Part shown: positions 42,747-42,762 of the stretch, piece after piece
Numbering within the stretch: the stretch's first letter is position 1
How the letters are laid out: each line of letters begins with the position of its first letter
From: Escherichia coli
Lineage (GTDB): Bacteria > Pseudomonadota > Gammaproteobacteria > Enterobacterales > Enterobacteriaceae
DNA: 62,123 nt
Direction: 5' to 3' (one strand)
NCBI RefSeq assembly: GCF_003334815.1
Contig: NZ_QOWO01000026.1
Made by a program: the position numbers and the translations under genes
The notes under the pieces: generated by a model
The model's database searches: none
Told to the model about the DNA's origin: nothing
The model's input: only the letters and a program-made list of their open reading frames with translations

Positions 42747-42762
42747 AGCAACAATCGCACCA
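42747..42762 (-). promoter_or_regulatory. Candidate sigma-54 (-24/-12) promoter upstream of ygfK
   Basis: Minus strand reads TGGTGC-GATTG-TTGCT (consensus TGGCAC-N5-TTGCW; GG and GC correctly spaced) ~75 nt upstream of the ygfK start; the sigma-54 activator gene ygeV is in the same gene neighbourhood. Confidence 0.3.

What the first reader, a model, noticed from the sequence alone, without database searches (positions are those of the whole stretch)
42747..42762. Candidate sigma-54 promoter in front of the ygfK-ssnA-ygfM-xdhD operon
The minus strand reads TGGTGCGATTGTTGCT (consensus TGGCAC-N5-TTGCW) about 75 nt upstream of ygfK. A weaker match (TGGCACACTTATTGTT, -12 GC replaced by GT) lies upstream of ygeW at 52564-52579. 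Together with ygeV this would place the whole selenium-dependent hydroxylase region under sigma-54 control.
Basis: partly seen in the sequence, partly recalled or inferred. Interest (0 to 1): 0.4.

Follow-up and report, generated by a model that had tools for sequence, protein, structure and literature searches.

The report
Known sigma-54 promoter of ygfK operon
The sequence is a real, deeply conserved sigma-54 (−24/−12) promoter in front of the E. coli ygfK-ssnA-ygfM-xdhD urate-degradation operon, but the site was already published, so the finding is correct and not new.

Summary
The 16-mer TGGTGCGATTGTTGCT is on the minus strand at 42762..42747, 72 nt before the ygfK ATG. As a consensus match it is at chance level: 43 hits with ≤2 mismatches against 43.1 expected. 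Other evidence shows it is real. With a PWM built from published sigma-54 sites outside this window, the xdhA, ygfK and ygeW sites rank 1, 2 and 4 of about 124,000 positions, and all lie just upstream of co-oriented operons (P about 1.6e-4). In 74 of 79 YgfK loci from other species an equivalent site sits 49-154 nt before the ATG, with TGG and TTGC invariant. Bonocora et al. 2015 list exactly this sequence as sigma-54 ChIP-seq site OS31, and the ygeW site as OS30. Zhao et al. 2010 reported modest rpoN dependence of ygfK, but placed the promoter in a register 9 nt upstream that my conservation data reject. New here: a conserved palindrome TATCA-N3-TGATA about 180-215 bp upstream, shared by the xdhA, ygeW, ygfK and ygfT promoters, which is the likely YgeV enhancer. 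A conserved CRP site lies at −97.5. Verdict: observation confirmed, interpretation supported, already known.

The parts
42747..42763 (-). Sigma-54 -24/-12 promoter element GTGGTGCGATTGTTGCT of ygfK (GG at 42761-42760, GC at 42749-42748)
   Evidence: Read. PWM score 13.97, rank 2 in the window. TGG and TTGC invariant in 73 distinct orthologous promoters and in the unbiased alignment A1. Identical to ChIP-seq site OS31, FAT 26 (PMC4591121).
42675..42736 (-). Predicted transcription start (42736, 19 nt after the motif centre) and 62-nt leader, with Shine-Dalgarno AAGGAGA at 42686-42680
   Evidence: Inferred using the Bonocora convention, not mapped. The Shine-Dalgarno is invariant in A1. No Rfam family matches here. 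A possible 5-bp leader hairpin is inconclusive.
42796..42811 (-). Conserved element TTCGAGCCGCCTCACA centred at -67.5 (TTMGA-N6-YTCACR), a CRP-like half-site, factor unassigned
   Evidence: fixed distance from the -24/-12 element in Enterobacterales, Aeromonas, Vibrionaceae and Shewanella. Similar elements lie at -67.5 in xdhA and -68.5 in ygfT.
42826..42841 (-). Perfect CRP consensus TGTGAGTTCATTCACA centred at -97.5
   Evidence: the only perfect match in the window. Conserved at -97.5/-98.5 across Enterobacterales. ygfK is listed as a CRP genomic-SELEX target (PMC3105977).
42851..42865 (-). Conserved block TGATTTTAATTCTCA (about -129 to -115), unassigned, possibly a proximal activator half-site
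   Evidence: Invariant or nearly invariant columns in A1. TAATTCTCA also flanks the ygeW palindrome.
42912..42924 (-). Second, weaker copy of the upstream palindrome (ACTGATTTTGAGA, centre -182)
   Evidence: The TTTTGA[G/T]AA part is invariant in A1. It lies 20 bp from the main copy.
42932..42944 (-). Perfect palindrome TATCATAATGATA (centre -202), the candidate YgeV enhancer (UAS)
   Evidence: the pattern occurs at five places in the window, four of them the xdhA, ygeW, ygfK and ygfT intergenic regions (9 strand-matches against 1.08 expected, 0 of 100 shuffles). It is 150-fold enriched at -230..-150 in 73 orthologous loci. Spacing to the promoter is helically phased.
34548..42674 (-). ygfK-ssnA-ygfM-xdhD, the operon the promoter is placed to drive
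   Evidence: Annotation. ygfK and ssnA are linked in all loci examined.
52563..52579 (-). ygeW sigma-54 site CTGGCACACTTATTGTT (-12 is GT instead of GC)
   Evidence: PWM 13.88, rank 4. ChIP-seq site OS30, FAT 3. A sigma-54 holoenzyme gSELEX peak lies in the ygeV/ygeW spacer (PMC8743547).
52780..52792 (-). Palindrome TATCAATATGAGA in the ygeV-ygeW spacer (centre -234 from the predicted ygeW start)
58484..58500 (-). xdhA sigma-54 site CTGGCGTAAATCTTGCC
   Evidence: PWM 15.48, rank 1. ChIP-seq site OS29, marked experimentally confirmed in EcoCyc.
58598..58631 (-). Two palindrome copies upstream of xdhA (ACTCATATTGATA at -131, TATCACATTGATT at -152)
27562..27574 (+). Palindrome TCTCATATTGATA in the uacT-ygfT spacer (centre -199 from the weak ygfT sigma-54 site at 27740-27756)
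   Evidence: The ygfT site is ChIP-seq OS32, FAT 3.
52948..54726 (+). [quoted passage not shown]
   Evidence: Pfam: PAS 162-205, Sigma54_activat 272-439 (E 2e-70), AAA_lid_14, and HTH_8 548-587. No receiver domain.

Best explanation
This is the functional sigma-54 promoter of the ygfK-ssnA-ygfM-xdhD operon, whose products carry out steps of reductive urate degradation. RNA polymerase with sigma-54 binds the TGG-N9-TTGC element at 42763-42747 as a closed complex. This binding is shown by published ChIP-seq. It cannot open the DNA without an activator. The activator is most probably YgeV (PAS, AAA+ and Fis-type HTH domains). I infer that YgeV binds the tandem palindromes TATCA-N3-TGATA centred at about -202 and -182, assembles into an ATPase ring and contacts sigma-54 by DNA looping. 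The loop is probably helped by cAMP-CRP bending the DNA at the conserved site at -97.5, and possibly at the CRP-like element at -67.5. That would make the operon subject to glucose repression. Transcription is predicted to start near 42736, giving a 62-nt leader. The same arrangement of palindrome, CRP-like site and -24/-12 element recurs at xdhA, ygeW and ygfT, so the urate/purine cluster behaves as one sigma-54/YgeV regulon. Shown: the sequence, its conservation, in vivo sigma-54 occupancy and modest rpoN dependence (the last two from the literature). Inferred: the start site, YgeV binding to the palindrome, and the architectural role of CRP.
For: Sequence and scores. Position statistic: (P about 1.6e-4). 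Conservation: 74 of 79 orthologous loci carry a sense-strand site scoring at least 11 bits, against 4 (antisense) and 3 (coding) in controls. TGG and GTTGC are at 2.0 bits while flanks are at 0-0.3 bits. The unbiased alignment A1 recovers the same invariant blocks. The site persists when the upstream neighbour changes among mocA, yqeC, yqeB, hyuA, xdhA-like genes and uacT. No sigma-70-like promoter match lies on the ygfK strand in the 321-bp spacer. Literature: ChIP-seq OS31, FAT 26, ninth strongest of 42 intergenic sense sites; ygfK 2.1-fold up after sigma-54 induction and 2.4-fold down in delta-rpoN; YgeV iModulon membership. Enhancer: a shared 12-mer in three promoters, window enrichment, 150-fold positional enrichment in 73 loci, and helical phasing with R about 0.76 at 10.5-11 bp. 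YgeV domains. CRP: a perfect consensus, conserved, a CRP gSELEX target, and glucose repression of urate degradation in vivo.
Against: No transcription start has been mapped, and I found no direct test of YgeV at ygfK. Bonocora et al. found sigma-54 holoenzyme largely inactive under their conditions and stress that binding does not equal a promoter. The Zhao fold changes are small, and Bonocora regard most of that list as false positives. The in vitro sigma-54 gSELEX study lists the ygeV/ygeW spacer but not ygfK. The -24 element deviates from consensus (TGGTGC rather than TGGCAC). Motif score alone is at chance level. No terminator was found after mocA, so read-through transcription is not excluded. 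The palindrome pattern was derived from the same sequences in which its window enrichment was counted. The 73 loci are phylogenetically related, so the P values for phasing and enrichment are overstated.
Confidence: 0.82

Rival explanations
1. Sigma-54 holoenzyme binds the site but never fires, so it is a poised or decoy site. ygfK would really be transcribed by sigma-70 polymerase, either from an unrecognised promoter or by read-through from mocA.
For: Bonocora et al. say most sigma-54 sites were transcriptionally silent in their conditions. No terminator-like structure follows mocA on the ygfK strand. The rpoN-dependent fold changes are only about 2.
Against: No sigma-70-like match lies on the ygfK strand in the spacer. 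The site, its palindrome and their phased spacing are conserved across gamma- and beta-proteobacteria, including species with no mocA upstream, which is hard to explain for a non-functional site. ygfK is co-expressed with the other sigma-54-bound operons in the YgeV iModulon.
Confidence: 0.08
2. The promoter is real but is activated by an enhancer-binding protein other than YgeV. The TATCA-N3-TGATA palindrome would then bind a different transcription factor.
For: No YgeV-DNA binding data were found. No YgeV orthologue lies within 3 kb of ygfK in the other species, so co-occurrence could not be tested.
Against: The palindrome occurs upstream of exactly the four sigma-54 ChIP sites that surround ygeV, including the ygeV-ygeW spacer. 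YgeV has a Fis-type HTH of the kind that reads such inverted repeats. Lamoureux et al. cite reduced ygfT expression in a ygeV mutant and define a YgeV iModulon that contains ygfK.
Confidence: 0.08
3. The true -24/-12 element is the overlapping register TGGCAAGAGTGGTGCG (42772-42757), as printed by Zhao et al. 2010.
For: It has TGGCA and a GC at the correct spacing, and it was the register published in 2010.
Against: Its PWM score is 7.97 against 13.97. It scores at least 7 in only 1 of 73 orthologous loci, with a median of -10.6. Its TGGCA columns carry 0-0.2 bits. MEME on the ChIP-seq peaks chose the other register.
Confidence: 0.02
4. The match is a chance occurrence with no function.
For: Consensus-level matches are as frequent as in shuffled sequence.
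Against: Position, orientation, conservation in 74 of 79 species, and published in vivo sigma-54 binding.
Confidence: 0.01

Closest known systems
E. coli sigma-54 binding site OS31 (ygfK) of Bonocora et al. 2015, also the EcoCyc predicted ygfK sigma-54 promoter
   Same: It is the same sequence (GTGGTGCGATTGTTGCT), the same strand, and the same 62-nt distance from predicted start to ygfK. This is the same object.
   Different: Nothing differs in the site itself. The paper does not describe an enhancer, the CRP arrangement or the wide conservation shown here. Its supplement scores only a few genera.
xdhA and ygeW sigma-54 promoters of the same cluster (OS29, OS30)
   Same: Each has a -24/-12 element 60-85 nt before the first gene, the same upstream palindrome family, and a CRP-like element at -67.5 or -77.5. 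The presumed activator, YgeV, is the same.
   Different: Palindrome distances differ: -131/-152 for xdhA, -234 for ygeW, and -202/-182 for ygfK. ygeW has GT at -12, weak ChIP signal (FAT 3) and strong in vitro gSELEX signal. ygfK shows the reverse pattern.
prpBCDE promoter (PrpR/sigma-54 with CRP-dependent catabolite repression) and glnAp2/dctA (sigma-54 promoters modulated by CRP), recalled from my own knowledge
   Same: These are sigma-54 promoters of catabolic or assimilatory operons with a dedicated activator bound about 100-200 bp upstream and a CRP site between enhancer and promoter. That arrangement couples them to carbon status.
   Different: The activator and enhancer sequence are different. 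At glnAp2 and dctA, CRP is inhibitory. Here the sign of the CRP effect is inferred to be positive only from glucose repression of the pathway. No IHF consensus was seen by eye.
DioR sigma-54 regulon of Clostridiales (Nie et al. 2019)
   Same: An enhancer-binding protein and SigL control orthologous genes (ygeW-ygfK-ssnA-ygeY, dpaL, yqeB, yqeC-ygfJ-yqeB-xdhC). So sigma-54 control of this pathway spans phyla.
   Different: It is in a different phylum with a different operon order. The DioR enhancer motif appears only in a figure I could not read, so similarity to TATCA-N3-TGATA is untested.

Membership tests
Sigma-54 (-24/-12) promoter | GG and GC dinucleotides with exactly ten bases between them, within TGGCAC-N5-TTGCW | tested here: met
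   TGGTGC-GATTG-TTGCT. GG at 42761-42760 and GC at 42749-42748. Two mismatches, both in the less critical CA of TGGCAC.
Sigma-54 (-24/-12) promoter | Overall similarity to experimentally bound sites | tested here: met
   PWM from 130 ChIP-seq sites outside this window gives 13.97 bits, against a training median of 14.4 and 10th percentile of 11.8. It ranks 2 of about 124,000 positions. The score alone is not above chance for 62 kb.
Sigma-54 (-24/-12) promoter | Intergenic, oriented towards a downstream gene, and within a usual leader distance | tested here: met
   72 nt before the ygfK ATG on the same strand. The positional expectation is 0.10 hits.
Sigma-54 (-24/-12) promoter | Evolutionary conservation of the -24 and -12 elements at the orthologous position | tested here: met
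   present in 74 of 79 loci. TGG and TTGC are invariant and flanking positions are not conserved.
Sigma-54 (-24/-12) promoter | In vivo occupancy by sigma-54 holoenzyme | not testable with these tools
   Literature only: ChIP-seq peak OS31, FAT 26 (PMC4591121). Not detected by in vitro gSELEX (PMC8743547).
Sigma-54 (-24/-12) promoter | rpoN-dependent transcription starting about 12 nt downstream of the GC | not testable with these tools
   Literature: microarray, 2.1-fold up on sigma-54 induction and 2.4-fold down in delta-rpoN (PMC2831329). I found no start-site mapping.
Sigma-54 (-24/-12) promoter | A cognate enhancer-binding protein with an upstream activating sequence 80-250 bp away | tested here: inconclusive
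   An EBP gene, ygeV, is present. A conserved, phased tandem palindrome lies at -202/-182 and is shared with xdhA, ygeW and ygfT. YgeV binding to it is not demonstrated.
CRP-dependent regulatory site | Match to TGTGA-N6-TCACA, conserved, in a promoter region | tested here: met
   a perfect consensus at 42826-42841, fixed at -97.5/-98.5 across Enterobacterales.
CRP-dependent regulatory site | CRP binding and a cAMP/CRP-dependent effect on expression | not testable with these tools
   Literature: ygfK, ygeV<>ygeW and ygfT<>ygfU are CRP gSELEX targets (PMC3105977). Glucose represses urate degradation (bioRxiv 10.1101/2025.05.19.654654).
YgeV regulon | Co-expression with the other operons flanking ygeV and dependence on ygeV | not testable with these tools
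   Literature: the YgeV iModulon includes ygfK, ssnA, ygfM and xdhD. ygeV dependence has been reported only for ygfT (cited).

The most novel reading that the evidence does not exclude
The tandem palindrome TATCA-N3-TGATA, two copies about 20 bp apart and centred 180-215 bp upstream in helical phase with the promoter, is the so far undescribed DNA recognition site of the orphan activator YgeV. cAMP-CRP bound at -97.5, perhaps with a second CRP-like site at -67.5, takes the DNA-bending role that IHF usually plays at sigma-54 promoters. Together these would give a conserved enhancer/CRP/sigma-54 module that governs anaerobic urate degradation across gamma- and beta-proteobacteria.
Probability: 0.5. 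Interest if true: 0.4.

Novelty: already known. Interest (0 to 1): 0.17.

Why it matters
The promoter controls four genes of the recently worked-out reductive urate-degradation pathway: XdhD reduces urate to isoxanthine, and YgfK and SsnA open the ring. Groups are now engineering this pathway into probiotic E. coli to lower serum urate. Knowing the native control elements tells engineers what to keep or replace, and under which conditions the wild-type pathway is silent. Those elements are sigma-54, the probable YgeV enhancer and CRP. The promoter itself is not new. What this analysis adds is modest. It settles which of two published registers is the real -24/-12 element. It shows the site is conserved far beyond Escherichia. 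It supplies a concrete, testable enhancer motif for YgeV.

Tried and rejected
1. Overlapping register TGGCAAGAGTGGTGCG, which I noticed and which Zhao 2010 published. Rejected: PWM score 7.97, and conserved in only 1 of 73 loci.
2. Sigma-70 promoter in the spacer. No match on the ygfK strand.
3. RNA element in the leader. No Rfam hit. RNAalifold predicts no structure. A manual 5-bp ACCGG/CCGGU hairpin is 89% paired, but covariation is not above shuffles, so it is inconclusive.
4. YgeV orthologue next to ygfK in other species. None within the 3-kb flanks, so co-occurrence could not be tested. I ran no further search on it.
5. IHF consensus (WATCAR-N4-TTR) between enhancer and promoter. None seen by eye in the E. 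coli sequence. This was not formally scanned.
6. PurR-operator-like sequences. Two hits with ≤3 mismatches, both in cluster spacers, but 11 of 100 shuffles do as well, and the known gcvT site was not recovered as a positive control. Left as a side note.
7. The rank-3 PWM hit upstream of gcvT (7867-7883) lacks the GG and has no published ChIP peak. Treated as a chance match.
8. Iwadate and Kato 2019 (ygeV mutant data) could not be read.
9. The first attempt at the genome scan failed because the queue was full. It succeeded on retry.
10. Three literature searches for a described YgeV binding motif found none. This is absence in the held library only.

Full report
**What is in the sequence**

The window is E. 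coli chromosome. A 2-kb query is 100% identical to several annotated strains. The annotation gives the following genes:
- ygfK 39576-42674 (−), followed by ssnA, ygfM and xdhD
- mocA 42996-43574 (−)
- yqeC and yqeB (+)
- ygeW-dpaL-ygeY-hyuA-arcC (−)
- ygeV 52948-54726 (+)
- xdhABC (−)

The GG is at 42761-42760 and the GC at 42749-42748. Seventy-two nucleotides separate the motif from the ygfK ATG. The second motif, TGGCACACTTATTGTT, is upstream of ygeW at 52578..52563.

**Is it more than chance?**

Not by motif quality alone.

I built a position weight matrix from 130 published sigma-54 ChIP-seq motifs, leaving out the five that lie in this window. Four positions score at least 13.8 bits, against 2.5 expected. 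What is not random is which positions these are:
- rank 1: the xdhA site (15.48)
- rank 2: the ygfK site (13.97)
- rank 3: a site upstream of gcvT (13.93), which lacks the essential GG
- rank 4: the ygeW site (13.88)

All four lie within 200 nt upstream of a co-oriented gene. Only 4% of position-strand slots qualify, so 0.10 chance hits are expected there, and P(≥3) is 1.6e-4.

**Conservation**

A scan of one genome per species with YgfK residues 1-400 returned 80 loci. They span Escherichia, Citrobacter, Klebsiella, Trabulsiella, Kluyvera, Serratia, Edwardsiella, Morganella, Erwinia, Aeromonas, Vibrio, Photobacterium, Shewanella, some Betaproteobacteria and Spirochaetes.

In 74 of 79 usable loci, the best sense-strand PWM hit in the 400 bp before ygfK scores at least 11 bits and lies 49-154 nt from the ATG. 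The antisense control gives 4 of 79 and the coding control 3 of 79. The medians are 14.9, 3.6 and 4.8. The exceptions are the Spirochaetes and one Ideonella.

Anchored on the hit, TGG (−26 to −24) and GTTGC (−15 to −11) carry 2.0 bits in 73 distinct sequences. Flanking positions carry 0-0.3 bits. Anchoring could bias this result, so I also made an unbiased MAFFT alignment of 15 Enterobacterales spacers, with mean column identity 57%. It recovers TGG, GA and TTGC as invariant columns.

The upstream neighbour of ygfK varies among mocA, divergent yqeC or yqeB, hyuA, an xdhA-like gene and uacT. The site persists through these changes, so it belongs to ygfK.

**What is already published**

- Bonocora et al. 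2015 (PMC4591121) list GTGGTGCGATTGTTGCT as sigma-54 ChIP-seq site OS31. Its fold-above-threshold is 26, the ninth strongest of 42 intergenic sense sites. The predicted start is 62 nt from ygfK, and the site is flagged as a predicted promoter in EcoCyc.
- The same table lists OS30 (ygeW, CTGGCACACTTATTGTT, FAT 3), OS29 (xdhA, FAT 11, confirmed), OS32 (ygfT, FAT 3) and an intragenic site in yqeC. Its supplement has a short conservation row for ygfK.
- Zhao et al. 2010 (PMC2831329) found ygfK 2.1-fold up five minutes after sigma-54 induction and 2.4-fold down in delta-rpoN.
- Lamoureux et al. 2023 define a YgeV iModulon. As listed in PMC12133099, it includes xdhABC, ygeWXY, hyuA, ygfK, ssnA, ygfM, xdhD, ygfT and uacT.

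So both the observation and the interpretation are correct, and both are already in the literature.

**A discrepancy that the data resolve**

I had noticed the same overlap. That register scores 7.97 bits, against 13.97. It scores at least 7 in only 1 of 73 orthologous loci, with a median of −10.6, and its TGGCA columns are unconserved. The Bonocora/reader register is the real one.

**Discordant data**

An in vitro genomic SELEX with sigma-54 holoenzyme (PMC8743547) reports the ygeV/ygeW spacer but not ygfK. ChIP-seq gives the opposite ranking. Bonocora et al. also stress that holoenzyme was mostly inactive in their medium and that binding is not proof of a promoter. I found no mapped ygfK start site.

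**Surrounding architecture**

A 12-mer, CTCATATTGATA, is shared by the xdhA, ygeW and ygfT upstream regions, and ygfK has the related perfect palindrome TATCATAATGATA.

The pattern TMTCAWWWTGATA with up to one mismatch occurs at five places in the window. Four of them are exactly the four spacers with sigma-54 ChIP peaks. That is nine strand-matches against 1.08 expected, reached in 0 of 100 shuffles. The pattern was derived from these same sequences, so this particular count is partly circular.

The independent test is the other species:
- In 73 loci the palindrome TATCA-N3-TGATA (≤1 substitution) occurs at 13.9 per kb between −230 and −150 from the predicted ygfK start, and at 0.09 per kb elsewhere.
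- A second, weaker copy usually lies 19-21 bp downstream.
- The distances cluster at −181/−182, −202/−203 and −214/−215, with a few at −191/−192 and −194. This is consistent with helical phasing: Rayleigh R is about 0.76 at 10.5-11 bp over all loci, and 0.45-0.65 over distinct distances only. The loci are related, so these P values are optimistic.

YgeV has PAS, sigma-54 AAA+ and Fis-type HTH domains and no receiver domain. This is the kind of protein that reads such inverted repeats. I found no paper describing a YgeV binding motif.

**CRP**

A perfect CRP consensus, TGTGAGTTCATTCACA, lies at 42841-42826, centred at −97.5. It is fixed at −97.5/−98.5 throughout Enterobacterales.

A further element, TTMGA-N6-YTCACR, sits at −67.5. 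It is conserved even in Aeromonas, Vibrionaceae and Shewanella, and it recurs at −67.5 in xdhA and −68.5 in ygfT. ygeW has a one-mismatch CRP site at −77.5.

CRP binding here is not new. Genomic SELEX lists ygfK, ygeV<>ygeW and ygfT<>ygfU (PMC3105977). A 2025 preprint reports glucose repression of urate degradation, relieved by replacing the Crp site in the ygeV-ygeW spacer.

**Mechanism**

The best reading is a standard activator-dependent sigma-54 promoter:
1. The closed complex forms at 42763-42747.
2. YgeV binds the tandem palindromes.
3. DNA looping is assisted by CRP-induced bending.
4. ATP-driven opening follows, with a start near 42736.

Rivals:
- A silent binding site with sigma-70 or read-through transcription. 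No sigma-70 match lies on the strand, but there is no terminator after mocA either.
- An activator other than YgeV.
- The other register.
- Chance.

**Comparison and novelty**

This is the published OS31 site, so the novelty class is 'already known'. It works like other catabolic sigma-54 promoters with a dedicated activator and CRP input, such as prpBCDE (from my own knowledge). Sigma-54 control of the orthologous genes also exists in Clostridiales through DioR.

The added value here is the register assignment, the breadth of conservation and a candidate YgeV enhancer. The enhancer is the most novel reading not excluded by the evidence, and it needs a binding experiment.

Noticed in passing
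window 44078-44094 (+), inside yqeC; also L017, L021, L026, L051 and about 35 other loci: This is the published intragenic sigma-54 site in yqeC that points at yqeB (TGAGCACGAACCTTGCA, Bonocora IS34). Its core GCAYGARCCTTGCA is conserved even where YqeC proteins are only 30-40% identical. In the reading frame GAG CAC GAA CCT TGC, the Pro codon is always CCT and the Cys codon almost always TGC, so the synonymous sites that form the -12 TTGC are frozen. The -24 GG is not conserved (GA in E. coli, TG in Aeromonas). C. difficile likewise has a SigL promoter before yqeB but not yqeC (PMC11448449).
   Followed up: partly
window 42851-42865 (-): The block TGATTTTAATTCTCA, about -129 to -115 from the predicted ygfK start, is nearly invariant across Enterobacterales. 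It matches neither the full palindrome nor the CRP site. It may be a proximal activator half-site (TAATTCTCA also flanks the ygeW palindrome) or the site of another factor.
   Followed up: partly
window 42796-42811 (-); also xdhA at -67.5 and ygfT at -68.5: The element TTMGA-N6-YTCACR at a fixed -67.5 is conserved more widely (Aeromonas, Vibrio, Photobacterium, Shewanella) than the -97.5 CRP site. It recurs at the same position in two other E. coli promoters of the cluster. It is CRP-like in one half only, and the factor is unassigned.
   Followed up: partly
window 52670-52685 and 27399-27414; by eye also 42973-42988: PurR-operator-like sequences lie in spacers of this purine-catabolic cluster: ACGAAAACGTTTGGCT in the ygeV-ygeW spacer, AAGCAACCGTTTACGT near uacT, and AGTTAAACGATTGCGT just after mocA. 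The last is conserved in Escherichia, Citrobacter, Klebsiella and Edwardsiella. Statistically this is weak: 2 hits against 0.5 expected, and 11 of 100 shuffles do as well.
   Followed up: partly
window 7867-7883 (+), 184 nt upstream of gcvT: CTGTCGCGATTTTTGCA scores 13.9 bits with the sigma-54 PWM (rank 3 in the window), in the sense orientation before gcvT. It has GT instead of the essential GG, and there is no peak in the published ChIP-seq table. It is probably a chance match.
   Followed up: partly
window 42706-42730 (-), ygfK leader +7 to +29: The conserved ACCGG...CCGGU pair could form a 5-bp hairpin near the 5' end of the predicted mRNA. It is paired in 89% of cells across 18 Enterobacterales, but covariation is not above shuffled controls.
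   Followed up: yes
window about 27488-27502, uacT-ygfT spacer: A perfect 7-1-7 palindrome, CGTGGTTAAACCACG, lies between uacT and ygfT. It is unrelated to the TATCA-N3-TGATA motif and could be a site for another regulator of the urate transporter gene.
   Followed up: no
L045-L047 (Morganella), minus strand about 2487-2491: A second strong sigma-54-like site (ATGGCCCGGAACTTGCT, about 14.8 bits) points away from ygfK, with the same palindrome about 265 bp upstream of it. This suggests a divergent promoter pair sharing one enhancer.
   Followed up: no
window 1769-1919, 2568-2751, 16262-16339: Rfam finds SIB RNA (antitoxin to ibsC), 6S RNA and naRNA4 elsewhere in the window. These are ordinary known features unrelated to the finding.
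   Followed up: no
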